From: a virus
Taxonomy: Duplodnaviria > Caudoviricetes
IMG/VR virus record: IMGVR_UViG_3300030045_000003
Location: 1 to 50,104 of that record
Reading direction: 5' to 3' (one strand)
DNA: 50,104 bases
Shown here: in pieces, positions 23,709 to 37,104 of the stretch
Layout of the letters: each line of letters begins with the position of its first letter
Position numbering within the stretch: the first letter of the stretch is position 1
Notes under the pieces: generated by a model
Told to the model about the DNA's origin: nothing
Database searches by the model: none
Seen by the model: the letters and a program-made list of their open reading frames with translations, nothing else
Program-made: the position numbers and the translations under genes

Positions 23709-23968
23709 TCGAGACTTTCTTTAGCCCGGATGGGCATGGGCTTGTGACGGCCATTCATGAAGCGTTCCGTCATGAAGCGAGGCTCGGCGGGGCTCCACGC
23801 CTCATCGTCGGCGCGAAGCTCGCCACCCGTGATGGATTCGAGCTTGACCTGTTGAGGGTGCGGAATGCCGAGCGTTTTCCATTCTGAGACGGTGTTCTCG
23901 CGCATGTTCAAAGCCCGCGCGAGCGCCCGTACCGTCATGTACTTTGTGAGTGCTTGATCCATGTTCAT
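23705..23968 (-). CDS. Cro/YdaS-like HTH transcriptional regulator
   Basis: VRALARALNMRENTVSEW...IP...LESITGGELRAD; first gene of the leftward operon, apparently leaderless. Confidence 0.85.
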   Translation of the reverse strand: MNMDQALTKYMTVRALARALNMRENTVSEWKTLGIPHPQQVKLESITGGELRADDEAWSPAEPRFMTERFMNGRHKPMPIRAKESLE

Positions 23969-23974
23969 GCCACG

Positions 23975-24003
23975 AGTGTCGCACGTCCGACACTATCGGT
24001 CAA
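23975..24003 (-). promoter_or_regulatory. Leftward sigma70-type promoter overlapped by two operators
   Basis: TTGACC-17 nt-GACACT, 6 nt before the Cro-like ATG; palindromes at 23979-23990 and 23996-24007. Confidence 0.7.
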
Positions 24004-24036
24004 CCGAAGTATTGCGTGTTTTCGCCGCAATTCCTG

Positions 24037-24065
24037 TTGACAATGTGTATCGGGTGTCCGGTACT
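24037..24065 (+). promoter_or_regulatory. Rightward promoter with operator
   Basis: TTGACA-17 nt-GGTACT; TCGGGTGTCCGG at 24050-24061. Confidence 0.7.
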
Positions 24066-24088
24066 TGGGCACCAACGGAAAGGACACC

Positions 24089-24352
24089 ATGACCGCAACC
24101 ACCGCACTGGGCCGCGTCTCACTCCAGCTTCGCGCCGCCCAGGACGCCAGCGACAAGCTCAACGCCTTTTTGGCAAAGCGCGCGGACGCAGGCCACTACA
24201 TCACCCAAATCGCACGCGACCTGGAAACCGCGCTGGCGCTGGCAGAGGCTTCGCTGCTGGCCGCACAACCGCCGCTGCATGACCAGGTCATCATCGGCGA
24301 GCGACCGGCGGTTGCCGCTTTTTTCGTCCTCGACCTCGGAGTCAACAAATGA
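24089..24352 (+). CDS. Hypothetical early protein
   Basis: RBS AAGGA, ATG 24089. Confidence 0.65.
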   Translation: MTATTALGRVSLQLRAAQDASDKLNAFLAKRADAGHYITQIARDLETALALAEASLLAAQPPLHDQVIIGERPAVAAFFVLDLGVNK

Positions 24353-24603
24353 ACACTCAACCCCTGATCGAGCGCCGCGGTGAGAACTTCTGGCGCAACA
24401 GCGACACGGGCCAGCCCTTGCCGTTCCCGGATGACGTGGAGGCCGCGAACGCCATCCCGCCCGACCACTCGCGCACCTTCCGCCCGGTCTACATGGCTCA
24501 CCCCGTGAGCCTGTGGCCGGTCATCCTGTCGGCAGTCAGCGCCATCATCTGCGCCGCAGTGCTGGTCTGGTTCGCCGTCGATTCAGTGAGGCACCACGCA
24601 TGA
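24349..24603 (+). CDS. Small membrane protein
   Basis: 84 aa with one C-terminal hydrophobic segment; ATGA overlap. Confidence 0.6.
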   Translation: MNTQPLIERRGENFWRNSDTGQPLPFPDDVEAANAIPPDHSRTFRPVYMAHPVSLWPVILSAVSAIICAAVLVWFAVDSVRHHA

Positions 24604-24755
24604 TCGATCACAACTATCGCAACCGATCTTCAGCCTTCACCGGGCGCGCCCCGCGCACGCTCTCCGAGCGCTGGCCTGACATGCCCGTGAGCCGCATGGG
24701 CTGGCCGGGCTTCTGGCATCGGCTTGTCGTTTTCCTTGTCGGGCACTGATTTCGC

Positions 24756-24784
24756 TTGACGGGCAGTCTCGGGTGTCCGATACT
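24756..24784 (+). promoter_or_regulatory. Rightward promoter with operator
   Basis: TTGACG-17 nt-GATACT; TCGGGTGTCCGA at 24769-24780. Confidence 0.8.
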
Positions 24785-24819
24785 TCGTTCACTGAAGCAG
24801 TAAGCAACCGGAGAACATC

Positions 24820-25011
24820 ATGCTGACTATCCACATCAAGACCGACGCCGACTTCACGCCTTCTGGTGCGCGCTCTTTTCGCATTGTCACTCACACGCGC
24901 GGAGTTCGGAAACTTTGGCTCTACGTGTCTGGACGGCGGTATCGCGACCTCGCGCCGACCCCGGAAAATCTCGCCATGGCGCGCGAGTGGATCGCGGCCC
25001 GCACAGCCTGA
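24820..25011 (+). CDS. Hypothetical early protein
   Basis: 63 aa, RBS GGAG after the promoter. Confidence 0.65.
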   Translation: MLTIHIKTDADFTPSGARSFRIVTHTRGVRKLWLYVSGRRYRDLAPTPENLAMAREWIAARTA

Positions 25012-25064
25012 AGAAACAGCCCCTCGCAGGGCTTGCATCAACAACACAACGAGGGCGACAACCC

Positions 25065-26072
25065 ATGAACGACATTCAGCTTATCGAGAAGTCGATTCTC
25101 GACCTGGAGCCGGCTTTCGAGCGGATCAACACGGACAAAAGCATCGTGTTTGCGCGCGAGGCTGAGTTCGCCATTCAGATCATCACGAACAGCAACTACT
25201 GCCTCAAGATCGCGAAGGAAAATCCGCAGAGCGTCCGCGATGCCGTCACCAACATCGCGGCCATGGGGGTGAGCCTGAACCCGGCGCGCAAACAGGCATA
25301 CCTTGTGCCACGCAAGGGCGGCATTACGCTGGTCATCAGCTACATGGGCCTGCTGGACATCGCGATTCAGTCGGGCTCGATCCTCTGGGGGCAGGCGGAA
25401 ATCGTCTATGCCGCCGACCTTGTGGCGCCGTTCGAGTTCACCATAAACGGGTACGACCAGCCGCCGACCCACAAACGCAACCCATTCGCCAAGGATCGCG
25501 GCGAAATTGTCGGCGTGTACGTCGTGGTCAAAACCCGCGATGGCGATTACCTCACCACGACGATGACGGCCAGCGAGGTATGGGACATTCGCGAACGCTC
25601 CGATGCATGGCAGGGCTACATGAAGGACAAGAGCAAGAAATGCCCGTGGGTGACCGACGAAACCGAGATGGTCAAGAAGACGGTCATCAAGAGGGCCTAC
25701 AAGACCTGGCCCAAGACTGAGCGCCTGGACAATGCCGTCCATCACCTCAACACCGCGGCCGGCGAGGGCATCACCTTCGCCGCGTCCGAAACGCCGCCGC
25801 AAGCGACCGCCGGCCTCATCGAGGGCGCGACCAAGGAAATCCCGCGCGAGCAGGTCATCCACAACGCGGCCATGGCTTGCATTGCCAAGTTCGAGACCGG
25901 CGACGAAATGGGGGCGTTCGAGGAAGTCGAATGGGTCACCGACAGCGACGAAATGATGCTGCTGTGGGGCATCCTTGGCAAGCAGCGCGCCAAGCTCCGA
26001 AACACCCTCAAGCGACTGGCCGCTGAAGCGCGCGCCAAGCAAGAAAACATCGACAAGGGCACGACGAAATGA
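25065..26072 (+). CDS. recT: RecT-family ssDNA annealing protein
   Basis: GVSLNP....AYLVP...ISYMGL...RGEIVGVY...PW.TD..EM.KKTVIKR..K.WP motifs; ATG 25065. Confidence 0.9.
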   Translation: MNDIQLIEKSILDLEPAFERINTDKSIVFAREAEFAIQIITNSNYCLKIAKENPQSVRDAVTNIAAMGVSLNPARKQAYLVPRKGGITLVISYMGLLDIAIQSGSILWGQAEIVYAADLVAPFEFTINGYDQPPTHKRNPFAKDRGEIVGVYVVVKTRDGDYLTTTMTASEVWDIRERSDAWQGYMKDKSKKCPWVTDETEMVKKTVIKRAYKTWPKTERLDNAVHHLNTAAGEGITFAASETPPQATAGLIEGATKEIPREQVIHNAAMACIAKFETGDEMGAFEEVEWVTDSDEMMLLWGILGKQRAKLRNTLKRLAAEARAKQENIDKGTTK

Positions 26073-27265
26073 CCGAAACAATCGACCGCACCCCGAGCGC
26101 CACGGCGCTTGCCATCCGCGCCAGCCTGGATCAACTGGACGGCGCGCTGGCCGAGTTCGAGAAGATCGAGGCCGGCTTCGCGGAATTGGAGAAGGCTCAC
26201 CCTGCCAATCTCGCGTGCGACGTGACGACGCCGGCCGGCATGCGCGAGGCCATCGCGGGCCGGGCCGCATGGCGCGATCCCCGCATCGCCACGGAGAAGG
26301 CGCGCAAGGCCGGCAAAGCCCCCGTGCTGGCGCTCGGAAAGGACATCGACGCCCGCGCCGCTGCGATCACGCTTCGCCTGGAAGCCGGAGAGGCGAACTA
26401 CGATGACCAGATCAAGGTCGAGGAAAAGCGCAAGGCGGCAGAAGCCGAGGAAAAGCGCCTGGCCGAACTCGCCCGACGCGAGCGCAATTCGGCCATCCTG
26501 ACGGCCATCCGCCAGCGCGCGTTCGACATGCAGGGCAAGCCGGCGAGCGTCATCAGTGGGGCCATCGTCCAACTGCATGTCGATGGCGCGGCCGGCTTCG
26601 GGCTGGACAAGGACTACAAGGCGCTGGAATCCGCGGCCGTTGACGACACGCGCGAGAAGCTGCGCGACATGCACCAAGCGGCAATCGAGCGCGAGGCCGA
26701 AGACGCCGCCCGCAAGGCGGAAGCGCTGGCGCTGGCGGCGGAACGGGCCGAGCTGCAGAAGCTGCGCGATGAACAGGCTGCGCGCGAACGGGCGGCACGC
26801 GAAGAAATCGAGGCCCAGCGGCGCGAGGCTGACGCGATCCGCGCGAAGGCCGACGCCGAGGCGCGCGCCCTTCGCGACGCCGAGGAAGCTCGCCTGCGCG
26901 CCGAGCGCGCGGAACAACAGGCCAGGATCGACGCCGAACGGGCGGAACTGCGCAAGGCCCAGGACGAGGCCGACAAGGCCCGGCGCGCCCGCGAAGAAGC
27001 CGAGGCGCGCGAGCGGATCGCGGTGCAGCAGGCGGCGGCTGAAACCGAGCGCCGCAAGCAGGATGAGGCAGCGCGGGAAGAACGCGCCCGCGCCGAGGCG
27101 GAACTGAAGCGGATGCAGGAGAGTCATGCGGCCGATGCGCGCGGTCGCGATGCGTGGGCTGACCTTGCGCACGTCTGCGAGATGGTCATGGCCGGCGAGA
27201 AGATCGCCGCCATTCGAGCCGCTGCCGCCGCCGCCTTGGAAAAGGCTGGACGCTCCAAGGTCTGA
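26069..27265 (+). CDS. Long coiled-coil protein
   Basis: 398 aa, A/E/R-rich, coupled to recT. Confidence 0.75.
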   Translation: MTETIDRTPSATALAIRASLDQLDGALAEFEKIEAGFAELEKAHPANLACDVTTPAGMREAIAGRAAWRDPRIATEKARKAGKAPVLALGKDIDARAAAITLRLEAGEANYDDQIKVEEKRKAAEAEEKRLAELARRERNSAILTAIRQRAFDMQGKPASVISGAIVQLHVDGAAGFGLDKDYKALESAAVDDTREKLRDMHQAAIEREAEDAARKAEALALAAERAELQKLRDEQAARERAAREEIEAQRREADAIRAKADAEARALRDAEEARLRAERAEQQARIDAERAELRKAQDEADKARRAREEAEARERIAVQQAAAETERRKQDEAAREERARAEAELKRMQESHAADARGRDAWADLAHVCEMVMAGEKIAAIRAAAAAALEKAGRSKV

Positions 27266-27266
27266 A

Positions 27267-27929
27267 ATGGAGAAAGCTCTCATTGAAAGGCGCGAGCGCC
27301 TCATCCGAGGCATTCGCGGCTACGCTTCGATCCTGCGAGTGCTCATGACCAGCAACGCGACCACGGCGCAACTATCGGCCGTGATGAGCTTTGGTGGTTC
27401 GGAGAAGACGAACCGCATCGCCATCAATCGCCTGCTTCGGCGGCTCGCGCCGGACGTCGTTCACATCGCCGGATGGGCTCGCGAAATCGGATGCCCGCCA
27501 TGCGAGATTTGGGCCTTTGGCCCAGGCGAGAACGCCCCTGCGCCACCAAGGCTGGATGGCAGCAAGCGCACGCGCATCAACGCGGCCCCGCGCCGCCATC
27601 GAATCGAGACGATGACCTTCGCCAGCATCATCATTGCCCTGCGCGACGGTCATTCGGTCATCGACCTGGCAGAACTGTCTGGTAGCGCCCTGACGGCTCT
27701 CTATCCGTTCATGAGGCACGCGCATTCCATCGGCCTTGTGCACATCGCGGAGTGGCACCGCCAGGCGTGCAGCAACCCGCGCCCGGTATTCGTGCTTGGT
27801 GCCGGCCGGGATGCGCCCAGGCCGAAGCCGCTGCCGAAGATCGTGACCGACCGACGATATAACGCCGCCCGGAAGTCGCGCAGGGTCGCCACATCTATTT
27901 GCAGAATGATGGCATCGCCGCTTGCATAA
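27267..27929 (+). CDS. Putative DNA-binding protein with internal duplication
   Basis: Two copies of VHIA.W.R.......(W/F)..G.G..AP.P. Confidence 0.6.
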   Translation: MEKALIERRERLIRGIRGYASILRVLMTSNATTAQLSAVMSFGGSEKTNRIAINRLLRRLAPDVVHIAGWAREIGCPPCEIWAFGPGENAPAPPRLDGSKRTRINAAPRRHRIETMTFASIIIALRDGHSVIDLAELSGSALTALYPFMRHAHSIGLVHIAEWHRQACSNPRPVFVLGAGRDAPRPKPLPKIVTDRRYNAARKSRRVATSICRMMASPLA

Positions 27930-27950
27930 GTCTCGGAAGTCCGATATAGT
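27922..27950 (+). promoter_or_regulatory. Rightward promoter with operator, upstream of the tnpB/CRISPR operon
   Basis: TTGCAT-17 nt-TATAGT; TCGGAAGTCCGA at 27933-27944. Confidence 0.75.
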
Positions 27951-27985
27951 CGAGTCTTCGATCAGCAAACAACCGGAGACACCCG

Positions 27986-28138
27986 ATGATCTATCCGCGC
28001 TATGCCGTCAAGGCCGCATACGACACCGCGATGACGCTCTACCGCACGTACCAGGAAGCCATCGAGGCCGTCGCCCGCGAACTCTGCATTCCGGTCGAAC
28101 AGGTCGAGGAAGCGCTGGCGCCGGAGTCTGTGCAATGA
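27986..28138 (+). CDS. Small hypothetical protein (50 aa, MIYPRYAVKAAYD...)
   Basis: RBS GGAG; translated by hand, below the ORF-track cutoff. Confidence 0.6.
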   Translation: MIYPRYAVKAAYDTAMTLYRTYQEAIEAVARELCIPVEQVEEALAPESVQ

Positions 28139-28311
28139 CGCGCGGCTTTGAACCCTGCATGTGCGGCGCGACGGACTGCCCCTCGTGCGGCCCGGCGCAG
28201 GGCTATGCCGTTCGGCGCGTCTGGGTGCATGGGCGAGGCTATCGCTACATCAACCCGGACGAGGAAGCAACCGAAGATGAGTCGGCCGATCAAATCGACG
28301 GCGCCGACTGA
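28135..28311 (+). CDS. Small Cys-rich protein
   Basis: ATGA overlap; CMCGATDCPSC. Confidence 0.55.
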   Translation: MTRGFEPCMCGATDCPSCGPAQGYAVRRVWVHGRGYRYINPDEEATEDESADQIDGAD

Positions 28312-28342
28312 CATCACCCGAATAGACCAAGGAAGGAAGAAG

Positions 28343-28726
28343 ATGAGCAACGACATCAAGGAGTTCGAAGACCTGAACGGCCACACGCTGGCGCAGTGCT
28401 TCAAGACCAGCGACGACGGCGAATTGCATTTCGTCTTGGCGGATGGACGGCAGTTCAAGCTGCACCATAACCAGGACTGCTGCGAATCCGTCTACATCGA
28501 GAGCATCGTTGGCGATCTAGCCGACCTCGTTGGATCGCCGCTGACGATGACCGAGGAAGTCAGTAGCTCGGAACTCACGCCAGAACAGATCGAACACCAA
28601 AGCGGATGCGACTCGTTTACTTGGACGTTCTACAAGCTGGCCACGATCAAGGGCTACGTGGACGTTCGCTGGTTCGGTAGCTCGAATGGCTACTACAGCG
28701 AATCCGTCAGCTTCGATCAAATCTGA
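28343..28726 (+). CDS. Conserved phage hypothetical protein
   Basis: HNQDCCESV...TWTFY...T.KG.V...W.G.SNGYYSE pattern; RBS AAGGA. Confidence 0.75.
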   Translation: MSNDIKEFEDLNGHTLAQCFKTSDDGELHFVLADGRQFKLHHNQDCCESVYIESIVGDLADLVGSPLTMTEEVSSSELTPEQIEHQSGCDSFTWTFYKLATIKGYVDVRWFGSSNGYYSESVSFDQI

Positions 28727-28746
28727 CCGCGCTACCGGAGCCTGAC

Positions 28747-29154
28747 ATGGACAACGCCATCGCTTGCCCGTACTGCCATGCGCCTGCCCGGCTGGTGTCG
28801 GGTGAGGCGATCTATCCGCATCGGGTCGATCTCTATGACCTGAAGTTTTGGCAGTGCCAACCTTGCGATGCCTACGTGGGTTGCCACAAGGCGGGTGCGA
28901 TGACCGACACGGGCCGCAGCGATGGAACATTCCCGCTCGGGCGCTTGGCGAATGCGGAACTTCGTCGGGCGAAGTCTGCCGCTCATGCCGCGTTCGATCC
29001 GCTGTGGAAGTCGAAGCGCATGAAGCGCCGCGACGCTTACGGCTGGCTCGCACGCGAACTCGGAATCAGTCGCGACAACTGCCACATCGGCATGTTTGAC
29101 GTTGACGCGTGCAGAGCTGTTGTGGCCGCTGCATCGAACTTCAGGAAGGACTGA
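28747..29154 (+). CDS. Zinc-finger protein (DUF3268-like)
   Basis: CPYC...C..CDAYVGCH...PLGRLANAELR...AH.AFDPLW...CHIGMFD. Confidence 0.8.
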   Translation: MDNAIACPYCHAPARLVSGEAIYPHRVDLYDLKFWQCQPCDAYVGCHKAGAMTDTGRSDGTFPLGRLANAELRRAKSAAHAAFDPLWKSKRMKRRDAYGWLARELGISRDNCHIGMFDVDACRAVVAAASNFRKD

Positions 29155-29155
29155 C

Positions 29156-29551
29156 ATGGACAACGACAAGGGGCTGGGAAGCATGACCAATAGCGCCAGT
29201 GCGGTGGAACGTCTGCGGGCTTCGCTTTTGACATGGGCGGGCCGAGAAGGCTCCATCGTCAATCAAAACGACATCCACGCCGTCCTGGACACCCTCGCCG
29301 AAAAGGAGTCCGAGCTGAAGGGCGCCTACGAGTTGCTGCACGCCACCGAGGACAAGGCTGTCGCCAAGGAGTCCGAAGTGCAGGCTTTGCGGGAGGTCAT
29401 CGACCACACCGTCAAGACCATCGAGAGGCAACTCGACCTGATCGGCGAACGCGCTCCCGGGAAGTTCCTCGACAAGACGCCGGTCATGCGCAGCTTGCAG
29501 GCGCACGTCAAGAGACTGAGCGCCGCCCTCAACCCGAAGGAAGACCAATGA
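29156..29551 (+). CDS. Hypothetical coiled-coil protein; contains the near-perfect target of CRISPR spacer 2
   Basis: RBS AAGGA, ATG 29156; 29179-29210 matches the reverse complement of spacer 2 at 30/32. Confidence 0.7.
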   Translation: MDNDKGLGSMTNSASAVERLRASLLTWAGREGSIVNQNDIHAVLDTLAEKESELKGAYELLHATEDKAVAKESEVQALREVIDHTVKTIERQLDLIGERAPGKFLDKTPVMRSLQAHVKRLSAALNPKEDQ

Positions 29552-29763
29552 CCATCTACAAATTCAACGCGCAAGTCACCATAAGCGTCTACACCGAAGT
29601 CGAGGCCGATAGCGCGTCAGAAGCTTTGGAGATCGCCAAGGAACGAGAAGTCGGGCAGCTGTGCCACAACGCCGTCTACCCTGACTGTGACGAGGCATGG
29701 TTCACCGATGAACTGGATGGCCAGCCCGAAAAGATCACGCTGAACGAGGTTTCCGATGAATGA
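29548..29763 (+). CDS. Small acidic hypothetical protein
   Basis: ATGA overlap, 71 aa. Confidence 0.6.
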   Translation: MTIYKFNAQVTISVYTEVEADSASEALEIAKEREVGQLCHNAVYPDCDEAWFTDELDGQPEKITLNEVSDE

Positions 29764-30247
29764 CACCCCCGCCCCTGGCGAGCCGATCAGCTTGCCTGAG
29801 CCATCTCCCATCGTCGGCGAAGCCGGCCGTAACAGCGTTCGCTGGGGTCTCGGCTACACCGCCGCTCAAGTCCGCAACATCGTTGCAGCCGACCGCGCCC
29901 ATGGTGCTGCGAGCCCTGACGTGACAAAGATGTTGGAGGCGTTGAAACTCGCTCGTCGCACGCTGTCAATGATGAAGCCTTGGGATGCCTACGACGCGGA
30001 GTTGCTTCAGAAGGCAGTCGCCGCCATCGACGCTCTCGGTGCTGCCGCAACCCAGGCGAGGGCTGCTGTGGGGACAGAGCATGGGCGCCGGCTAGTGCGC
30101 GCCCTGGTTCGTGCGGCATGTCTGCAAGAGAGAGAGCCCAGCGAAAAGAACCAAAACGCATACCACTCGGCGCGCGAGACGGTCGAAGCCGCACTCTCTG
30201 CGCAGACCCCTGGCGAGGGGTGGACGGCAAAGGACTCCGAAAAATGA
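29756..30247 (+). CDS. Hypothetical protein
   Basis: 163 aa; its stop overlaps the tnpB ATG. Confidence 0.6.
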   Translation: MNDTPAPGEPISLPEPSPIVGEAGRNSVRWGLGYTAAQVRNIVAADRAHGAASPDVTKMLEALKLARRTLSMMKPWDAYDAELLQKAVAAIDALGAAATQARAAVGTEHGRRLVRALVRAACLQEREPSEKNQNAYHSARETVEAALSAQTPGEGWTAKDSEK

Positions 30248-31344
30248 TCAAGACCCTCCAAGTTCGGGTCAAGGACAAGCATGCGTCCTTGCTGGCAGCG
30301 ATGGCGAGAAACGTCAACACCTGTTGGAACTACTGCAACGAGACCAGCCAGAAGGCGATCCGGGATCGCCGGCAGTTCCTGAGCGGCTATGACCTGCAGA
30401 AGCTCACCGCTGGGTTCACCGCTTGCGATGGTGTTGAGATCGGCGCCGGTACGGTAAATCTGGTGTGCGTCGAGTACGCAAACCGTCGCCGTCAATTCAA
30501 GCGCCAACGGCTCAACTGGCGCGTTTCGAACAAGAACTCTTCCCGCTACTCGCTTGGATGGGTTCCCATGAAAAGCACGGAGATCAGGTATCGGTCGGGC
30601 CAGATCGTCTATGCAGGAGTGGCGTTCAGCCTGTGGGATAGCTACGGTCTGGGCGACTACGCGCTCCGCGCCGGTTCCTTCTCTGAAGACGCACGCGGCC
30701 GGTGGTATTTCAACGTCGCTGTCGAGGTAGCAGCCACCAAGAGCGAGGGCACCAAGGCCGTCGGCATCGACCTAGGTCTGAAGACCGCCGTCACCTGTTC
30801 GGACGGCCAGACTTTCACGGGCCGGCTGTACCGCGCCAGCGAGGCAAAGCTCGCCAAGGCCCAACGCGCTGGCAAGAAGCGCCTAGCGCGGACGGTGCAC
30901 GCCAAGATCAGGAACCAACGCAAGGACGGACTGCACAAGTTCAGCACTGCGCTGGTGCAGGAAAACGCCGCCATCTTCGTGGGCGACGTGAGCAGCAAGA
31001 AGATGCTCAAGACCAAGATGGCCAAGTCCACGCAGGACGCGGGCTGGGCCATGTTCAAGACCATGCTGGAGAACAAGTGCCGTCAGGCAGGCGTGGTGTT
31101 CGAAGTTGTCAACGAGGCATACACAACCCAAACCTGTTCTCAGTGCGGAAGCATTGAGGGGCCGAGAGGTGTCGCAGGTCTTGGAATAAGACGATGGCGA
31201 TGTTCATGCGGGGTCGAACATGACCGCGACGTGAACTCGGCGCAAAACATCGTCCGAATCGGGCTTGATTCGCTAGCTGTAGGAGCCGCCTTGAGCGGAG
31301 AAGCCAATGTCGATGCGGTGTCGGGCCGCTGCATGGGAGCCTGA
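30244..31344 (+). CDS. tnpB: RNA-guided endonuclease TnpB (366 aa), no adjacent transposase
   Basis: WNYCN helix; RuvC-I VGIDLGLK; RuvC-II region FVGDV with downstream VNEAYTT; Zn finger CSQC...CSC; RuvC-III HDRDVNSAQNI; ATG 30244. Confidence 0.92.
   Translation: MIKTLQVRVKDKHASLLAAMARNVNTCWNYCNETSQKAIRDRRQFLSGYDLQKLTAGFTACDGVEIGAGTVNLVCVEYANRRRQFKRQRLNWRVSNKNSSRYSLGWVPMKSTEIRYRSGQIVYAGVAFSLWDSYGLGDYALRAGSFSEDARGRWYFNVAVEVAATKSEGTKAVGIDLGLKTAVTCSDGQTFTGRLYRASEAKLAKAQRAGKKRLARTVHAKIRNQRKDGLHKFSTALVQENAAIFVGDVSSKKMLKTKMAKSTQDAGWAMFKTMLENKCRQAGVVFEVVNEAYTTQTCSQCGSIEGPRGVAGLGIRRWRCSCGVEHDRDVNSAQNIVRIGLDSLAVGAALSGEANVDAVSGRCMGA
31150..31327 (+). ncRNA. Predicted TnpB omega-RNA overlapping the tnpB 3' end; guide predicted from 31308 (5' boundary uncertain)
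   Basis: GGAG-CCGC-CTTGA-GCGG-AGAAGCCAA (31282-31307) resembles an IS200/IS605 right-end hairpin ending in YCAA; the next 16 nt match 32181-32196 (minus strand) at 15/16. Confidence 0.5.
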
Positions 31345-31345
31345 A

Positions 31346-31840
31346 ATGGACTACCAAACTCTTGAAGACGAGTTGCGCGCTGTCTGCGTCGCGGCCGATG
31401 CCGGCGCTGGCGGGTGGGTGCGCACGTCGCGCATCCTGGAAGCCATTGCCGCCCCTACGGCACCCCAGGCAGTGGGAGAGCCGGTGGCGTTCACTGCCGC
31501 ACAGGCAGCTCAGAAACTTGGGAAGACCCAAGACGACCCCGAGGATAAGTTTACTGCCGCACAGGCAGCTCAGAAAGTTCCACCGCACTGGCGCTATCGG
31601 TCATGCTGGTTCACTGCCGCACAGGCAGCTCAGAAAACTGCACCAGCAGCGACCGCAGAGCCGAGCGCCGTGGCGGGGGCAAGGGAGCCTCTGACGGATG
31701 AGCAGATTGATGAGGAATACCTCAACGGCGATCTCCAACCTCAACTTTACGACAGGCAAGGCATGTTTCAGGCCGGCGCCCGCTTCGCTGAGCGCTACCA
31801 CGGCATCGCTTCTCCTGCTGGTGATGGGGGAGCGAAGTGA
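31346..31840 (+). CDS. Small phage protein (164 aa) whose middle is encoded by the CRISPR array
   Basis: RBS GGGAG, ATG 1 nt after the tnpB stop; open through all repeats (FTAAQAAQK x3); stop overlaps the next GTG. Confidence 0.7.
   Translation: MDYQTLEDELRAVCVAADAGAGGWVRTSRILEAIAAPTAPQAVGEPVAFTAAQAAQKLGKTQDDPEDKFTAAQAAQKVPPHWRYRSCWFTAAQAAQKTAPAATAEPSAVAGAREPLTDEQIDEEYLNGDLQPQLYDRQGMFQAGARFAERYHGIASPAGDGGAK
31489..31636 (+). CRISPR. Type I-F CRISPR mini-array: 3 repeats (28 bp), 2 spacers (32 bp), no cas genes or leader
   Basis: Repeats GTT(C/T)ACTGCCGCACAGGCAGCTCAGAAA at 31489, 31549 and 31609 with CTGCC/GGCAG stem. Spacers CTTGGGAAGACCCAAGACGACCCCGAGGATAA and GTTCCACCGCACTGGCGCTATCGGTCATGCTG. 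Confidence 0.97.
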
Positions 31841-32475
31841 TCGCAGCGCTCTACGTCGAAACTGACGGCGCGTACTTCGGCCTGCCTGGCGTAGACCCGT
31901 GGGATGAGCCGCGTGATGCGCGGAAGTACGCCGGCCCGCATCCTGTCGTCGCCCATCCGCCGTGCCAGCGCTGGGGGCGCTTCTGGCATGGAAGCACATT
32001 GAAGCCGCATCAGTTCGAGTTGGGCACGGACGGCGGCTGCTTTGCTGCCGCGTTCAGCGCTGTTCGCACGTTCGGCGGCGTCCTTGAACACCCCGCTGAC
32101 TCGCAAGCATGGCCTGCGTTCCACATTGCCAAGCCGCCTCGGACTGGCGGCTGGATTCGTGCGGACACCATCGGCGCGGACGACACCGCATGGACATGCT
32201 GCGTCTACCAAGGTCACTACGGCCACATTGCGGGCAAGGCAACCTGGCTCCTGGCCTGCGGCCTCAAGCGCGAACAGCTTCCCGAGCTGCGCTGGGGCAA
32301 GACAGAACAGCGCATCCACCCGCGCGCCCTGGAGCTGCACGGCTACGAGAAGGCTAGGCGGATCGGAATGATGGCGATGGTCGGCGGAAAGGACAAGACA
32401 CGCATCCGCAACGCCACGCCGCCCGAGTTCCGGCAGGTGCTCATCGACATCGCCAACCTGGCACGGAAGGACTGA
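31837..32475 (+). CDS. DNA cytosine methyltransferase-like protein (short form)
   Basis: VVAHPPC (motif IV-like), VLEHP (ENV-like), Q..YGH...K.TWL, and terminal TPPEF motifs; lacks a clear FxGxG. Confidence 0.55.
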   Translation: MIAALYVETDGAYFGLPGVDPWDEPRDARKYAGPHPVVAHPPCQRWGRFWHGSTLKPHQFELGTDGGCFAAAFSAVRTFGGVLEHPADSQAWPAFHIAKPPRTGGWIRADTIGADDTAWTCCVYQGHYGHIAGKATWLLACGLKREQLPELRWGKTEQRIHPRALELHGYEKARRIGMMAMVGGKDKTRIRNATPPEFRQVLIDIANLARKD

Positions 32476-32476
32476 C

Positions 32477-32794
32477 ATGACCCCCGAATCATCCCGGCTC
32501 GCGGAAGAAGCGAAGCAACACTACCGGCACGCGATCGCTGACTGCATGTACGGCAAGCAACGCAGCGTGGCAATCCACGGCCAGGCACTCTTTTCGATGA
32601 TCGACCGACTTGCAGCTCTGGCATCCAGCCAGGCAAGCGAGCCGGTGGAGGCGCGAGATGGCTTCTACGTGATGCCGCACAAGGCCACGCCGGAGCATCG
32701 GCTTCACCTACAGATCGGCGGAACCATCTGGCGCTACGTGCTTGAGGACGCCGCCCCTCAGTCCAACACGCAGAGCAAGGGAGAAGGCGAGTGA
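32477..32794 (+). CDS. Hypothetical protein
   Basis: RBS AAGGA, 105 aa. Confidence 0.6.
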   Translation: MTPESSRLAEEAKQHYRHAIADCMYGKQRSVAIHGQALFSMIDRLAALASSQASEPVEARDGFYVMPHKATPEHRLHLQIGGTIWRYVLEDAAPQSNTQSKGEGE

Positions 32795-33426
32795 CCGCAC
32801 CGAACTGCCGCAAATGCGGTTCCCCCATGGCTCCTGGAATCGCCCTCGCCAACACCATGACCGGAACAGGCGACTTCGGCCGCGATGACGTGGTGACCAT
32901 GAGCCCTGGTGGCCCTGGCAAGCTCATCGACTGCGACAAGTGTACAGCCTGTGGGTGGAGTGTCAGCCCCAAGACGCCGAGCCTGCCGGTGGTCGTCGTC
33001 TCTGCCCCTGAGCGCATCTTCCTGGTCATCGGCGAGGACTGCCCTCCTGAGGCCCGCTGGGATCAACTGGCCGAAGTCACCTGGTGCGAGGACAACATCG
33101 ACGGCAACGGCATTGCCTACCAGCGACAAGACCTCGCCGCATCAGCTATCGAAAGCCTCCAGGCCGAAGTCGAGCGGCTGACGAATGAGTGCACCGCACT
33201 GAGAATCAGAGCCAACGCTCAGCCAGTCCGGATGGATCAGTGCGAGACGTATTGCGCGACAGCAAAGCGCCTCACCGCCGAAAGGGATGCAGCCCTGCGA
33301 AAGTACAGCGAATGGCACATCGAGGCCCTGAGCCGTGCGGCCAAGGACAAGGCCGAACCCGAGAACCCGGCCGCAATCGCGGAGCGCTTCTGGCGCGGAA
33401 CCCTATCAGACCGCAACAAACCGTAA
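32791..33426 (+). CDS. Hypothetical protein with N-terminal Zn ribbon
   Basis: CRKC...CTAC; APERIFL...EVTWCEDNI motif. Confidence 0.65.
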   Translation: MTAPNCRKCGSPMAPGIALANTMTGTGDFGRDDVVTMSPGGPGKLIDCDKCTACGWSVSPKTPSLPVVVVSAPERIFLVIGEDCPPEARWDQLAEVTWCEDNIDGNGIAYQRQDLAASAIESLQAEVERLTNECTALRIRANAQPVRMDQCETYCATAKRLTAERDAALRKYSEWHIEALSRAAKDKAEPENPAAIAERFWRGTLSDRNKP

Positions 33427-33433
33427 TTGGTGC

Positions 33434-33462
33434 TTGACAGGTAGTCTCGGGTGTCCGATACT
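33434..33462 (+). promoter_or_regulatory. Rightward promoter with operator (near-copy of 24756 cassette)
   Basis: TTGACA-17 nt-GATACT; TCGGGTGTCCGA at 33447-33458. Confidence 0.85.
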
Positions 33463-33498
33463 TCGTTTACCGAAGCAGCAAACCAACCGGAGAACGAC

Positions 33499-33699
33499 AT
33501 GACCAACGAAATTATGACCAAGATCGCCGAGCACTTCAAGAACCCGGCCGCTCGCATCGTCGTTGCTGCGCCTGGCGCACGTACCAACATGATTCTGTCG
33601 CCTGCGAACTTCTCCGAAATGAAAGTCGATGGCTCTGGCGTGCGATTTCGCAAACTGTACCTGTTCGCCTCGCAACTGCGCTTCGCGCGGGTGGCGTAA
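33499..33699 (+). CDS. Hypothetical early protein
   Basis: RBS GGAG, ATG 33499. Confidence 0.65.
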   Translation: MTNEIMTKIAEHFKNPAARIVVAAPGARTNMILSPANFSEMKVDGSGVRFRKLYLFASQLRFARVA

Positions 33700-33935
33700 T
33701 GGCTGACCTGCCGAAATCCTTCATGGGTCTTGGTGCCTTTGATGGCGCGCGTGGAGAGCCGCCCTATACCGTGACAGACCTTGACGAAACCGAGCGCAAC
33801 GAACGCGAACGATGCGCCGTCATCGCGGAGACAACCGAGGTTCTTATCGACCTGCGTGACTGGACTTGTTTAACGCGCAAGGCACTTACTGCGCTCGTCG
33901 CAAAAGGCATTGCCGACGCCATCCGAAACCAATGA
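33699..33935 (+). CDS. Hypothetical protein
   Basis: TAATG overlap; ERERCA motif. Confidence 0.6.
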   Translation: MADLPKSFMGLGAFDGARGEPPYTVTDLDETERNERERCAVIAETTEVLIDLRDWTCLTRKALTALVAKGIADAIRNQ

Positions 33936-34071
33936 ATCCAGAGCCTGCCATGACGATGATCTTCACCCACATGGACGAGGCCCTTGACTGCGCGGTCGCG
34001 CTGAGCAACGCGGGCCGCACGTACCGCTACACGCGCAACGCCAAGGGCGAGCACGAGATCACCACGAGGGA

Positions 34072-34503
34072 TTGATGATGAACACCAACGAAGAAACTAT
34101 CGATGTGATTGAAGAACAAATCAAGAAGCGGGCCTTGATTGCCGCGTTCAGCGCCATGAGGCCGCTATTTGATGATTCTGAAACGATAGAGGACAGGGCG
34201 GCAATCAGGACGGTCTTGAATGCCGCCGCCGCCGTCTCTGAGTCGGCGAAAGGGGCGCCGGCAGGGGTCTACATCGATTCCACTTCAATCTTAGCGTCCG
34301 CATTCGCCGCTCACACAATGGGGGTTGGCGCCGAAGACTGCGCGCCCTATTCGGTTGTTGGTTGGCGAGTCGAATGTTTCGTGCAGGCCCTTCGCGGAAT
34401 GGACATGCTCGAATGCGCTTCTGCGTGCCTTCTCGACGGGGTCGATTACTCCGCGAACTCGCGTTCTTTTAAGGACGCCATGGAAATTCAAGATCGCAAT
34501 TAG
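34072..34503 (+). CDS. Hypothetical protein, last gene of the rightward arm
   Basis: ~143 aa, lower GC, converges on the late operon end. Confidence 0.55.
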   Translation: MMMNTNEETIDVIEEQIKKRALIAAFSAMRPLFDDSETIEDRAAIRTVLNAAAAVSESAKGAPAGVYIDSTSILASAFAAHTMGVGAEDCAPYSVVGWRVECFVQALRGMDMLECASACLLDGVDYSANSRSFKDAMEIQDRN

Positions 34504-34511
34504 GCCGATGG

Positions 34512-34841
34512 TCACCGGTATGCAATCTTGAAGTAAAGCGTCCGGTCGTCAGTGCGCCCCTGAGCCGTCACGAACTGGCACGTACCAGCGACGGTCTGCC
34601 CGACCAGCGAGAGGTCGCTGATCGACAGCCAGCCCCACACGGTGTTGTCCACAATGGGGCCGGGCACGATGTCCGCCCCTGTCGTCGGCGTTGTTCCTGG
34701 GTTGCCGATGCAGATGTGCCAGGTCGCCGAGACAACGGAGTCCGTGGGGTCGATCAGCGCGGCCACGTCCCACCCGTAATCGAGGATGGCTTCCGGGTCA
34801 TGCGTGATGGTGGGCTTGCCCGTGGTGACGTTAAAGGCCAT
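34512..34841 (-). CDS. Fibre/adaptor-like virion protein
   Basis: MAFNVTTG...HDPEAILDYGWD...TAQGRTDDRTLYFKI pattern; ATG 34841. Confidence 0.65.
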   Translation of the reverse strand: MAFNVTTGKPTITHDPEAILDYGWDVAALIDPTDSVVSATWHICIGNPGTTPTTGADIVPGPIVDNTVWGWLSISDLSLVGQTVAGTCQFVTAQGRTDDRTLYFKIAYR

Positions 34842-37104
34842 CGGTCGTCTCCGTGAATGCGTAGGTGCGGGTTTCCGCAGGGAAAACAAAGTTGCGAGAT
34901 TCCGGGCCGAACGCATAGACGCGCGACTCGGGCGGGAACACGAACACCCGCGATTCAGGCGGGTAGATGAACATCCGAAGCAGGGTGAAGGCAATCTCGA
35001 CCCAGTTCACCGTGTCCTGCGCCGATCCGGCCTCGGAAATCGTGACGCCCTGCCCGGTCGAATTGTCCACGGTATCGGCAGCGGAAGCCACTTCGGCCAG
35101 TGCCGCCCCGAGCGCGCCAGCAGCGTCCTCCACGTCCTGTGCCGCCCCGAACTCCAACGCCTGGGCAACCAGCAGCGCGGACGCTCCGGTCGAATCGGTC
35201 GCGGCCAGCGCCTCGGCAATCAGTTCGGCGATTGCCAGGAGCGCCGATGGCGCGTCCGACGCGGCGCCGGACTCAGAAATCGCTGCCGGCGTGACGCGCT
35301 GATCGCTGACCGTATCCAGCGCCGCCAGGCCATCGGCGAGCGCCGCCCCCAGGATTGCCGCCACGGACACGGCATCTGCGGCCGCGCCAGCCTCAGCAAT
35401 GGCCGACAGCAGGACTGCCGTCGCCGAAGGTGAATCCGCTGCAGAGAGCGCTTCGCTGACCACCTGTCCGTTGAAGACGGTCGCAGTCGGCGTGTCCGCT
35501 GCAGTACCCGATTCGGAGATGGCACCGCCAGTGATTGCAGTCGTCGAGACGGTATCCGCCGCCGAACCGGCTTCCGAAATGCTTGCCGTCCCGGTGTTGG
35601 TCGCCGATGGGCTGTCGCTGGCGGCGCCCGATTCGGCCACTGCGACGGTCGTGGCACCCGAATAGCTGACCGTATCGGCCGCGGCGCCGGCTTCGCTGAT
35701 GGATTGCGTCGTGACCAGCGCCGCCGATGGGGAATCCGCCGCGCTTCCCGCTTCGGAAATGGCCTGCGTTGTCGTGTTTGTGGCACTGACAGCATCCGAT
35801 GCCGCACCGGACTCGGCGACCGCCGATCCAAATACCGCCGTCGCGGCCACCGAATCGGCCGCAGAGCCACTTTCGGAGATGGCCTGGGGGGTGGATAGCG
35901 TGGCGGACGGGGAATCGCTTGCGGAGCCCGTTTCGCTGATCGCGCTGGTCGTCGAGTTACCGGCGCTCACGGCATCGCTGGCGCTGCCGGATTCCGCGAT
36001 GGCCTGCGTCGTCACGATAACTGCAGACGGCGCGTCGCTCGCCGAACCGCTCTCCGCGATGGCTTGGCCCGTCGTGAATACCGCCGATGGCGCGTCCGAT
36101 GCCGATCCGGACTCGGAAATGCTCACGTTGTAGGTGTTCCCGCCGCCCGAGAACGTTCCTTGCATGAACGTGCCGAACGCGCCCGCGCCGAACGGCATGC
36201 CGAAGGTCGTCGTGACGCGCTCGCCAGTCCCGGCTAGGTTGAACGCCACCAGCAGCGCCGCCACGGCCGAAGTGACCGATCCGTTGCTGTCGGTGACGAT
36301 GCACTGATACTGCCGCCCCTGGATGGAGTAGGTCGCGGTTGGCGTCGTGAAGGTCGAACTCGTGGCGCCCGTGATGTTGGCAAACGATCCGGTCGAATTG
36401 TCTTGCCATTGATAGGACAGCGACCCGGCGCTGGCCGTGGCCGTGACAGAGAACGTCGCCGTGGCGCCAGCGTTTGCCGTCTGATTCGTCGGCTGCGCGG
36501 TGATCGTCGGGCCGGTCAGCAGCGGGCGAAGCGCAATGCTCCGCGCCACCCAGTCCCCGCCACCCGTCGATGTGACGCCGGACACGGTGCCGGCGGTCGT
36601 GATGATCGCGTCGGCAGCAACGCACCAATCAGCACTTGCCGCGCGTTGCGTGTACCCGGTTGGCTGCGATGCGATGGCATTGAAGTTCGTCGAGATGACG
36701 ACATTCAAGGCGTTCGCGCTGACCGTCGTAATCGACGGATAGCTGATCGTCCCGCTTGTGCCCGTTGCCGGCGTTGGCGGCGTGACGTCCAGCGGCGTCG
36801 TGGTGTTGACGCCTCGATATGCGCCGAGCGCGCCTTCGATTGTCGAACCGCCCACCGGGGTAAACGTGAAGTTCCCGGACTCCGACCCCGTGGCCGTGTA
36901 GATCAGGACGGTAGTCGGAAACCCATTCGACGGGGTGTTGACCGTCGAGCCGACAGCAGTCCAGGACGTGGCCGTGACGCCCGTACCGGAGTCTTGCAGG
37001 AACTCCGCAAGAAGGATGTCCCCCGCCGCCAGGCCAGAAGGGACGGCGATGTTGACCGTGCCGGTGCCTGATCCAGAGTTCCCGCCGACGTAGGTGATTG
37101 CCAT
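34831..37104 (-). CDS. Large repetitive fibre-like protein with Ig-like domain
   Basis: 757 aa; PTITAQP...ATFSVTA...LSYQWQ...YQCIVT Ig motif; ~19 tandem 20-aa repeats; 9-aa C-terminal repeats. Confidence 0.8.
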   Translation of the reverse strand: MAITYVGGNSGSGTGTVNIAVPSGLAAGDILLAEFLQDSGTGVTATSWTAVGSTVNTPSNGFPTTVLIYTATGSESGNFTFTPVGGSTIEGALGAYRGVNTTTPLDVTPPTPATGTSGTISYPSITTVSANALNVVISTNFNAIASQPTGYTQRAASADWCVAADAIITTAGTVSGVTSTGGGDWVARSIALRPLLTGPTITAQPTNQTANAGATATFSVTATASAGSLSYQWQDNSTGSFANITGATSSTFTTPTATYSIQGRQYQCIVTDSNGSVTSAVAALLVAFNLAGTGERVTTTFGMPFGAGAFGTFMQGTFSGGGNTYNVSISESGSASDAPSAVFTTGQAIAESGSASDAPSAVIVTTQAIAESGSASDAVSAGNSTTSAISETGSASDSPSATLSTPQAISESGSAADSVAATAVFGSAVAESGAASDAVSATNTTTQAISEAGSAADSPSAALVTTQSISEAGAAADTVSYSGATTVAVAESGAASDSPSATNTGTASISEAGSAADTVSTTAITGGAISESGTAADTPTATVFNGQVVSEALSAADSPSATAVLLSAIAEAGAAADAVSVAAILGAALADGLAALDTVSDQRVTPAAISESGAASDAPSALLAIAELIAEALAATDSTGASALLVAQALEFGAAQDVEDAAGALGAALAEVASAADTVDNSTGQGVTISEAGSAQDTVNWVEIAFTLLRMFIYPPESRVFVFPPESRVYAFGPESRNFVFPAETRTYAFTETTDGL

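What the first reader, a model, noticed from the sequence alone, without database searches (positions are those of the whole stretch)
29156..32475. Candidate new system: domesticated TnpB plus type I-F mini-array whose guides point at genes flanking the module
Seen: tnpB has no tnpA and no intergenic IS ends (ATGA overlap upstream, next ATG 1 nt after the stop). A I-F array starts 144 nt after it in the same predicted transcript. Spacer 2 near-matches a gene ~1 kb upstream of tnpB and the predicted omega-RNA guide near-matches a gene ~0.85 kb downstream; both guides are antisense to the operon mRNA and both self-matches are imperfect. Established: TnpB is an omega-RNA-guided nuclease ancestral to Cas12; I-F repeats are processed by Cas6f and loaded into Csy; cas-less phage mini-arrays can borrow host Cas proteins. 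Inference: an RNA-guided competition/homing cassette that cuts sibling-phage alleles on both sides (own TnpB plus host Csy-Cas3) so that RecT-mediated repair copies it. Alternatives: TnpB uses Cas6f-cut crRNAs, the guides are regulatory, or the two elements are independent neighbours.
Basis: partly seen in the sequence, partly recalled or inferred. Interest (0 to 1): 0.92.

Follow-up and report, generated by a model that had tools for sequence, protein, structure and literature searches.

The report
Phage TnpB beside CRISPR mini-array
A complete 50-kb phage carries two separate RNA-guided hitch-hikers side by side: a transposon-type TnpB nuclease gene with its own guide RNA, and a three-repeat CRISPR mini-array that probably borrows the host's Cas proteins against a sibling phage; nothing found here shows that they work as one system.

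Summary
tnpB (30244-31344) is intact. Three canonical type I-F repeats lie at 31489-31636. Spacer 2 matches the phage's own gene at 29179-29210 in 30 of 32 bases. The omega-RNA guide, mapped by comparison with relatives to start at 31308, matches 32181-32196 in 15 of 16 bases.

The idea of one combined system is not supported. None of 29 viral loci with TnpB relatives has a CRISPR repeat. None of 58 viral stretches with I-F-type repeats has a TnpB of this family.

The TnpB belongs to a mobile IS605-type family with a covarying guide-RNA scaffold. Two of its four nearest relatives are frameshifted.

The guide's second match is weak: 1.6% of random 16-mers of this genome score as well, it has a mismatch at guide base 5, and the adjacent motif is not TAM-like.

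The mini-array fits the known kind of phage array aimed at related phages. Spacer 2 encodes exactly the allele (N12D) of a homologue seen on another contig, and the phage's own copy has PAM AC instead of CC. A natural variant carries only one repeat. The array lies in frame inside an ORF.

Verdict: a new member of known kinds, of moderate interest.

The parts
24756..24784 (+). Only sigma-70-like promoter match on the + strand upstream of the early operon that contains the module
   Evidence: TTGACG-17-GATACT, 9 of 12. The next + strand match is at 33434. A consensus match only, not shown to function.
24915..26072 (+). RecT-family single-strand annealing protein gene
   Evidence: Pfam RecT, 1.1e-28.
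29156..29551 (+). Gene of unknown function (131 aa) that holds the near-match to spacer 2
   Evidence: GC3 0.83. No Pfam or PHROG hit. One homologue, P0002, at 45% identity with the first 21 residues identical except N12D.
29179..29210 (-). Self protospacer of spacer 2: 30 of 32 bases, flanked by AC where type I-F needs CC
   Evidence: Mismatches at spacer positions 22 and 32.
29756..30247 (+). Upstream ORF (163 aa) whose stop overlaps the tnpB start (ATGA). A hairpin CCCCTGGCGAGGGG lies about 40 nt before the tnpB ATG.
   Evidence: Codon score favours this frame. No conserved IS left end could be aligned.
30244..31344 (+). tnpB (366 aa), intact, IS200/IS605-family RNA-guided nuclease. The last 12 codons lie beyond the element's right end.
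   Evidence: phrog_506, 3.9e-68; ISDra2 TnpB structures, 1.8e-20.
31128..31307 (+). Omega-RNA scaffold inside the 3' end of tnpB. It ends ...GGAGCCGCCTTGAGCGGAGAAGCCAA.
   Evidence: Conservation among 17 relatives stops sharply here. 17 of 31 predicted pairs show compensatory changes across 14 sequences. The 5' limit is not determined.
31308..31327 (+). Predicted omega-RNA guide (DNA flanking the right end)
   Evidence: First bases after the conserved scaffold end. The guide length of 16-20 nt is taken from knowledge of the family (recalled).
31346..31840 (+). ORF of 164 aa that contains the whole array in frame; no known family
   Evidence: Both flanks of the array prefer this frame by codon score (0.375 and 0.174). 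The same protein is seen on 10 contigs.
31489..31636 (+). Type I-F mini-array: 3 repeats, spacer 1 (31517-31548) and spacer 2 (31577-31608)
31837..32475 (+). phrog_12600 gene (212 aa, function unknown) that holds the guide's near-match
   Evidence: 6e-65. 234 relatives in viral contigs.
32181..32196 (-). Second site matching guide bases 1-16 with one mismatch (guide base 5). The flank on the TAM side is ...GCAGCA.
   Evidence: Chance level 1.6%.

Best explanation
Two independent RNA-guided elements happen to lie next to each other in the early operon of a complete 50-kb phage.

(1) A solo tnpB of an IS200/IS605-type family. Its omega-RNA scaffold is embedded in the 3' end of the gene, and its guide is the adjacent phage DNA (31308 onward). 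By the established model for TnpB, the RNP cuts a copy of the same site that lacks the element, and recombination then copies the element in. The phage's RecT could serve that step.

(2) A cas-less type I-F mini-array, read through from the same operon. Host Cas6f would cut it and the host Csy complex would load it. Spacer 2 would direct host Csy-Cas3 against a sibling phage that carries the D12 allele of gene 29156-29551. The phage's own copy would be spared by a lost PAM (AC instead of CC) and two mismatches.

Shown here: the gene, the RNA scaffold, the repeats, the matches, the variant allele at protein level, and the absence of linkage among relatives.

Inferred: expression, processing by host Cas6f, cleavage by either nuclease, and exclusion of the sibling phage.
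For: TnpB side.
- Pfam, PHROG and PDB matches.
- A scaffold with a sharp end at ...YCAA in 16 family members, and compensatory changes in 17 of 31 predicted pairs.
- 31 viral loci in unrelated contexts, and 12 of 301 sampled genomes of one bacterial order with 1-4 matches each.
- Frameshifted copies in L088 and L093, as expected for a selfish element.

Array side.
- Rfam CRISPR-DR4 on the + strand.
- The exact repeat occurs in 109 bacterial stretches, many of them long arrays of Burkholderiales and Lysobacterales.
- The same repeat, flanked by other letters on both sides, sits on a 90-nt contig in run X7, which also holds the phage.
- No Cas6f in the phage.
- Spacer 2 translates to SMTDSASAVE, identical to residues 9-18 of P0002. 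The phage's own gene has N at residue 12.
- The self site has PAM AC.
- A natural variant protein, P0004, lacks exactly the 40 residues encoded by two repeat-spacer units.
- Published pattern: phage mini-arrays carry host-identical repeats and target related viruses, often adjacent genes, but not themselves (passages of PMC11656645; PMC6858448).

Independence of the two.
- 0 of 29 tnpB loci carry a CRISPR repeat.
- 0 of 58 I-F-repeat stretches carry a TnpB of this family.
- 0 of 4 other phage records show a second site for their guide.
Against: - The DNA of the P0002 contig could not be fetched, so a perfect protospacer with a CC PAM is not shown. Exact searches for 28 bases of the spacer-2 target found nothing in metagenome or viral contigs.
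- Spacer 1 has no known target.
- The host is unknown: none of 2172 spacers from 80 bacterial loci matches the phage convincingly (best 20 of 22).
- The family lacks the canonical RuvC-II glutamate (Gly in all 18 aligned members), so nuclease activity rests on an assumed alternative glutamate.
- No left end or TAM could be defined for the window's copy.
- The guide's second match, at p about 0.016, is not fully explained by chance.
- Both near-matches flank the module, which the independent-neighbours reading treats as coincidence.
Confidence: 0.6

Rival explanations
1. The repeats act mainly as an RNA anti-CRISPR (a Racr-type decoy for Cas6f and Csy proteins, or a Cracr-type regulator of host cas genes). 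On this reading the two spacers are passengers picked up by recombination with a host array.
For: A natural variant (P0004) has a single repeat and no spacers, which is the form described for Racrs (abstract start of PMC10651486; review passage). No leader or promoter lies upstream: the 143 nt before the array are 69% G+C, and there is no promoter-like site. Phage mini-arrays without leaders have been suggested to gain spacers by recombination with host arrays (PMC6858448 passage).
Against: The window's form has full 32-nt spacers between canonical repeats. Spacer 2 is aimed at a phage gene allele, not a cas promoter. Neither spacer had a match longer than 16 nt, or covering its PAM-proximal bases, in the 222 fetched loci, which include the 109 bacterial I-F stretches. 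Those stretches cover only up to 8 kb each, and the true host is unknown. The decoy and targeting roles do not exclude each other.
Confidence: 0.15
2. One reading: tnpB and the mini-array form one cassette. Its two guides cut sibling-phage alleles on both sides (TnpB downstream, host Csy-Cas3 upstream), so that RecT-mediated repair copies the whole module, acting as a phage gene drive.
For: Both near-matches bracket the module, about 1.0 kb upstream and 0.84 kb downstream. Both are imperfect in the phage itself, and both lack the PAM or a TAM-like flank. The two elements share an operon with RecT. In runs X8 and X11, contigs leave the window after 29307 and enter it at 31388, so a co-occurring sibling differs in exactly the segment that holds tnpB. 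The guide match has p about 0.016, and 0 of 4 control phages show a second site.
Against: There is no co-occurrence in relatives: 0 of 29 and 0 of 58. TnpB guides are set by the insertion site and are not acquired, so a match to a distant inverted site has no known origin. No perfect 16-nt match to the guide occurs anywhere in the 80 fetched loci carrying homologues of the downstream gene (best 15 of 16, elsewhere in the locus). The mismatch lies at guide base 5. The flank GCAGCA is unlike the YCAA that precedes left ends in the family. The sibling junctions (29307, 31388) do not coincide with the element's ends.
Confidence: 0.07
3. The TnpB is a domesticated RNA-guided repressor (TldR-like). 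Its guide would tune the downstream phrog_12600 gene or the operon, and the array is unrelated.
For: Gly replaces the canonical RuvC-II glutamate. The guide near-match lies in a gene of the same operon. Prophage-borne TldRs are known (passages of 10.1101/2023.11.30.569447).
Against: The Gly is shared by all 18 aligned family members, including copies with clear transposon ends. The other two acidic residues and the zinc finger are kept. The TldR authors note that one catalytic residue can sit at an alternate position, and they demanded two or more mutations. The target lies inside a coding region, not a promoter.
Confidence: 0.04

Closest known systems
Virus-borne CRISPR mini-arrays used in conflicts between related viruses (Medvedeva et al. 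2019, PMC6858448; phage survey by Faure et al. 2019, known to me only through citations in PMC6858448 and PMC11656645)
   Same: One or two spacers; repeats identical to host arrays; no cas genes; a spacer aimed at a nearby gene of a related virus while the carrier's own copy escapes; no leader, as reported for phage mini-arrays.
   Different: The array lies in frame inside an ORF of the early operon, so each 60-nt unit adds 20 codons. A one-repeat variant of the same locus exists in nature. The carrier keeps a 30 of 32 self match that is protected mainly by its PAM.
IS200/IS605-family TnpB with omega-RNA (ISDra2 TnpB, PDB 8EXA and 8H1J; homing model of Karvelis 2021 and Meers 2023, recalled)
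   Same: RuvC plus zinc-finger architecture; guide-RNA scaffold overlapping the 3' end of the gene; scaffold ends at the element's right end, followed by a variable guide; solo tnpB without tnpA.
   Different: The canonical RuvC-II Glu is Gly in the whole family. The window's subfamily (window, L086, L088) has the right end ...GCCAA and no recognisable left end. In L086 at most about 19 nt separate the neighbouring phage gene's homology from the start of tnpB homology (4984-5002). The ORF reads through the right end into phage DNA.
RNA anti-CRISPRs (Racr, PMC10651486) and viral crRNA-like regulators (Cracr, 10.1101/2024.10.29.618823)
   Same: I-F repeat units carried by a phage without cas genes; a single-repeat variant exists.
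   Different: The window's form has full-length spacers and canonical repeats. No match to a cas promoter was found, and no acrIF24-like neighbour was recognised (no PADLOC, Pfam or PHROG hit of that kind; these libraries may not hold it).
Type V CRISPR-Cas (Cas12 derived from TnpB with its own array)
   Same: A TnpB-like nuclease gene lies 144 nt from a CRISPR array on the same strand.
   Different: The repeats are type I-F, identical to arrays served by Cas6f and Csy. By eye I saw no resemblance between the repeats and the TnpB scaffold (not computed). No relative of this TnpB has an array.

Membership tests
IS200/IS605-family TnpB (OMEGA nuclease) | RuvC-like domain plus zinc-finger (TNB) architecture | tested here: met
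   Pfam OrfB_IS605 59.7 bits and Cas12f1-like_TNB 83.3 bits. ISDra2 TnpB chains, E 1.8e-20.
IS200/IS605-family TnpB (OMEGA nuclease) | Catalytic D-E-D triad | tested here: inconclusive
   The equivalents of D191 and D361 are kept. E278 aligns to Gly in all 18 family members. An acidic residue is invariant in the V(N/D)E motif about 44 residues downstream and could be the alternate Glu (recalled idea; the alternate position is mentioned). No structure was computed.
IS200/IS605-family TnpB (OMEGA nuclease) | Omega-RNA scaffold at the 3' end of the gene, ending at the right end, followed by a variable guide | tested here: met
   Sharp end of conservation in 17 relatives. 17 of 31 pairs are compensatory.
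IS200/IS605-family TnpB (OMEGA nuclease) | Left end with hairpin, preceded by a TAM | tested here: inconclusive
   Seen in L089/L090, L091 and L099/L101. Not alignable in the window, L086 or L088. The window has an unrelated hairpin about 40 nt upstream of the ATG.
IS200/IS605-family TnpB (OMEGA nuclease) | Mobility: copies in unrelated contexts | tested here: met
   31 viral loci share only the tnpB segment with the window. 12 of 301 sampled bacterial genomes have matches.
Type I-F CRISPR array | 28-nt repeat with the Cas6f hairpin, 32-nt spacers | tested here: met
   CRISPR-DR4, 44-47.5 bits. 60-nt period. The exact repeat occurs in 109 bacterial stretches.
Type I-F CRISPR array | Adjacent cas genes and a leader | tested here: not met
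   No Cas6f in the record. No promoter-like site or AT-rich leader. It is therefore a cas-less mini-array, not a CRISPR-Cas locus.
Virus-borne mini-array for interviral conflict | Spacer matches a related virus but not the carrier | tested here: inconclusive
   At protein level, spacer 2 equals the P0002 allele in 10 of 10 residues, against 9 of 10 for the phage's own gene. The self site lacks the CC PAM. The DNA of the relative was not obtainable.
Virus-borne mini-array for interviral conflict | Interference depends on host Cas proteins | not testable with these tools
   The host is unknown, and no RNA holder was listed.
Racr (RNA anti-CRISPR) | Solitary repeat unit without a functional spacer | tested here: not met
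   The window has 3 repeats and 2 full spacers. Only the variant P0004 has one repeat.
TldR (nuclease-dead TnpB repressor) | Two or more RuvC residues lost and/or a truncated C-terminal domain, with stable association to a non-transposon gene | tested here: not met
   One position differs, and it differs across the whole family. The zinc finger is intact. Neighbours differ in every relative.
Type V CRISPR-Cas | Effector and array co-inherited | tested here: not met
   0 of 29 relatives have any CRISPR repeat within about 5 kb.

The most novel reading that the evidence does not exclude
tnpB, its omega-RNA and the I-F mini-array act together as a two-guide homing cassette. Host Csy-Cas3, guided by spacer 2, cuts the sibling allele about 1 kb upstream. 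TnpB cuts a sibling site downstream. RecT-mediated repair from the carrier then converts the whole interval, spreading both elements through the phage population. A milder version is also not excluded: the array alone drives co-conversion of its neighbour tnpB, and it grows by 60-nt units that stay in frame inside a tolerant linker of a protein-coding gene.
Probability: 0.07. Interest if true: 0.85.

Novelty: new member of a known kind. Interest (0 to 1): 0.38.

Why it matters
If the ordinary reading holds, this is a clean natural example of a bacterial phage mini-array. It comes with the targeted sibling allele, with self-protection through a lost PAM, and with population variation (one repeat against three) at a single locus. 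It could serve for testing how leaderless phage arrays gain and lose spacers. The in-frame position inside an ORF is unusual and easy to test. The TnpB adds a well-defined omega-RNA family (scaffold end, right-end motif, Gly at the RuvC-II position) carried by phages that also encode RecT. That is a natural setting for testing TnpB homing during co-infection. Only if the two elements prove coupled would this become a new kind of system.

Tried and rejected
Relatives of the phage.
- Megablast of 28000-34000 against GenBank phages found no match.
- Loci found with the phrog_12600 protein (80 kept of 234) share no other gene of the module.
- The spacer-2 target protein found no relative in viral contigs or, as an alignment with P0002, in metagenome contigs.

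Exact DNA searches.
- The spacer-2 target gave nothing in metagenome or viral contigs.
- Spacer 1 gave nothing in viral contigs.
- The window's own record is left out of these collections, so the blanks say little.

Host assignment.
- 2172 spacers from 80 bacterial loci gave one weak hit, 20 of 22. This was rejected as chance.

Short matches to L086 and L088.
- Spacer 2 matches them over 16 of 16 bases and the guide over 17 of 18.
- I first read these as targets. I then rejected that reading.
- They fall in short conserved patches shared by L086 and L088 (a gene start MTDS and a linker AVDAVAGEPVA).
- They cover the PAM-distal half of the spacer only.
- Exact matches of 16-17 nt between the window and these loci are at background level.

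Other attempts.
- tblastx of the window against L086 and L088 was too noisy to use.
- BLASTP of the upstream ORF and of the array ORF against ORFs of L086 and L088 gave no significant similarity.
- Rfam gave no family for the omega-RNA at gathering thresholds.
- TnpB was not found in 5 genomes that hold the repeat.

Sequencing runs.
- No RNA holder was listed.
- Laying contigs of X7, X8, X9 and X11 showed no joint that skips tnpB or array units. Contigs cannot show rare variants. Parts without cover in X9 and X11 are not evidence.

Closed or limited tools.
The contigs of P0002 and P0004 could therefore not be read.
- Supplementary tables of the Cracr preprint (Tables S2, S3) were not seen and may list this or similar arrays.
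- The survey by Faure et al. 2019 was not read.
- No structure prediction or complex prediction was run.

Full report
What the window is. The 50,104-bp window is a whole IMG/VR virus record with 127-bp direct terminal repeats, rated 100% complete, at 63% G+C. Structural genes lie on the minus strand. A tightly packed plus-strand early operon runs from about 24.9 to 33.4 kb. Within the scanned stretch (23500-35000) it has one promoter-like match at 24756-24784, and on the + strand no terminator-like site after 24319. RecT is at 24915-26072. Eight sequencing runs labelled peat metagenome hold the region. The proteins of the module are on record from 9-10 contigs.

tnpB is 30244-31344, 366 aa, with Pfam OrfB_IS605 and Cas12f1-like_TNB, phrog_506, and ISDra2 TnpB structures at 1.8e-20. 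Its start overlaps the stop of ORF 29756-30247 (ATGA), and the next ATG follows its stop by 1 nt. There is no Y1 transposase and no Cas6f in the phage. Three 28-nt repeats at 31489, 31549 (one mismatch) and 31609 score 44-47.5 bits for Rfam CRISPR-DR4 on the plus strand, with 32-nt spacers. Spacer 2 is the reverse complement of 29179-29210 in 30 of 32 bases. Apart from five 32-mers scoring 27-32, which I attribute to the terminal repeat without having checked, 400 random 32-mers of the window reached at most 26 of 32. Spacer 1 has no match in the window.

The TnpB is a transposon-type element with its own guide RNA. Thirty-one viral loci encode relatives with best-segment identities of 30-80%. 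DNA similarity to the closest relatives covers only 30247 to about 31311, with nothing shared upstream or downstream. Aligning the 3' regions of 17 relatives shows a conserved segment that ends abruptly at ...GGATGTCAA in most members and at ...GAGAAGCCAA in the window, L086 and L088. After that point every sequence differs. RNAalifold on 14 sequences predicts 31 pairs, 17 of them with compensatory changes. One example is the 7-pair hairpin at alignment columns 139-156. This is the expected omega-RNA scaffold.

In most relatives the ORF stops within 0-16 codons (mostly 1-11) after the end of the protein match (two outliers, 38 and 98 codons). The window's ORF reads 12 codons on into flanking DNA. 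Left ends with a hairpin, preceded by ...YCAA, are visible in L089/L090, L091 and L099/L101. None can be aligned for the window, L086 or L088. In L086 only about 19 nt separate the neighbouring phage gene's homology from the start of tnpB homology (4984-5002).

All 18 aligned members have Gly where ISDra2 has the catalytic E278. The two Asp residues and the zinc finger are kept. The TldR preprint notes that one catalytic residue can occupy an alternate position in TnpBs (passage). The Glu of the V(N/D)E motif, invariant in all 18 aligned members and about 44 residues downstream, is my candidate; this is from recall and was not tested.

L088 and L093 are frameshifted. The family occurs in 12 of 301 sampled genomes of one bacterial order, with 1-4 matches each. 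Together these points describe a selfish, mobile and sometimes decaying element, not a domesticated gene.

The guide's second match is weak. Guide bases 1-16 match the minus strand at 32181-32196 with one mismatch at base 5, and 16 of 20 bases match overall. The flank on the TAM side reads ...GCAGCA. Shuffles gave a mean of 0.08 matches at up to 2 mismatches. The fairer control is the genome itself: 63 of 3987 random 16-mers (1.6%) have a second site with at most 1 mismatch. In 4 of 4 other phage records the guide has only its own site. No perfect 16-nt match to the guide occurs anywhere in the 80 fetched loci that carry homologues of the phrog_12600 gene; the best, 15 of 16, lies elsewhere in its locus. 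TnpB guides are fixed by the insertion site, so a match to a distant inverted site has no known source. I rate it as probably chance.

The guide region also resembles a linker-coding patch (AVDAVAGEPVA) conserved between L086 and L088, in 17 of 18 bases. That fits the guide being ordinary phage DNA next to the insertion.

The mini-array fits a known kind. The exact repeat occurs in 109 bacterial stretches, many of them long arrays of Burkholderiales, Lysobacterales and others. In run X7 it also sits on a 90-nt contig with other letters on both sides, the look of another array carrying the same repeat. Read in the frame of the target gene, spacer 2 encodes SMTDSASAVE. The phage's own gene has N at residue 12. 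P0002 is the only homologue found among 5.8 billion clustered proteins (45% identity overall, first 21 residues identical but for this one), and it has D at residue 12. The self site is flanked by AC instead of the CC PAM of type I-F (the PAM is from recall). A silent change of the Arg codon CGT to CGG would restore CC.

This matches the published pattern: phage mini-arrays carry host-identical repeats, mostly target related viruses, sometimes adjacent genes, do not target themselves, and lack leaders (passages in PMC11656645, and PMC6858448).

Two features go beyond that pattern. First, the array lies in frame inside ORF 31346-31840. Both flanks prefer that frame by codon score, like neighbouring genes. 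Each 60-nt unit equals 20 codons. All three frames of the repeat are open, however, so translation is not shown. Second, P0004, from a 602-bp contig, is the same protein minus exactly the 40 residues encoded by two repeat-spacer units. A one-repeat form of the locus therefore exists. Whether spacers were gained or lost is unknown.

Linkage fails. None of 29 tnpB-relative loci (of 31; L092 and L096 were left out as near-duplicates) has any CRISPR-DR hit within the roughly 5 kb fetched on each side. None of 58 viral stretches with the pattern GTTCACTGCCGNNNAGGCAGCTNAGAAA has a tblastn hit to any of 18 family TnpBs. More distant TnpB families could have been missed.

Sibling phages exist. In runs X8 and X11, contigs follow the window up to 29307 and then diverge, and others enter it at 31388, with the same loose letters in both runs. 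X8 also holds the window's own form. A co-occurring relative therefore differs in the segment that contains tnpB. Its junctions are not the element's ends, though, and its sequence could not be read.

Mechanism. Most likely (0.6): the operon transcript yields an omega-RNA for TnpB and, through host Cas6f, two crRNAs loaded into host Csy. Spacer 2 excludes or converts D12-allele siblings. TnpB homes into element-free copies of its own site, with RecT helping repair in both cases. The rivals are a decoy or regulatory role for the repeats (0.15), the combined cassette (0.07), and a TldR-like repressor (0.04).

Novelty. This is a new member of known kinds. The in-frame, polymorphic array and the phage-borne TnpB subfamily without a recognisable left end are worth a note. 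The adjacency by itself is not a system. I found no paper describing a TnpB coupled to a type I array in a phage in searches. These cover open-access text only and do not show absence.

Noticed in passing
L086:900-6650 and L088:300-6350: These two phage loci share 20 collinear short patches (28-66 nt, 82-100% identical) separated by diverged DNA, besides tnpB. They look like recombination boxes for module exchange. Window 31474-31489, 31308-31325 and 17802-17818 resemble three of these patches.
   Followed up: partly
window 31478-31505 and L088:4574-4597: The DNA coding EPVA-FTAAQ at the start of the first repeat resembles DNA coding PVAWTADQ in an L088 gene (GTGGCGTnnACTGCCGnnCAG). This could be microhomology through which a repeat was captured from a host array, or it could be chance.
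   Followed up: no
L084:4584-4837: Another viral contig carries three I-F repeats on the minus strand facing one exact copy of the window's repeat on the plus strand. L085 has the exact repeat at 2238-2265 and a weaker CRISPR-DR4 match at 86-113 on the other strand.
   Followed up: no
window 30244-31344 and loci L086-L106: The whole TnpB family has Gly at the position of ISDra2 E278 (motif VG[DN]VS) and an invariant acidic residue in V(N/D)E before the zinc finger. This probably represents a rearranged catalytic site.
   Followed up: partly
L094:1348-1370: The guide position of this TnpB copy is a (CTGT)n microsatellite.
   Followed up: no
window 28747-29154 and 28148-28726: Neighbouring early genes are DUF3268 (a zinc-finger domain, 8e-35) and DUF7448 (1e-27). 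Most other genes of the operon have no family.
   Followed up: no
window 31321-31354 and 28722-28755: Two gene junctions share GGAGCCTGAnATGGAC (74% over 34 nt), a repeated ribosome-binding and stop-start arrangement in the operon.
   Followed up: no
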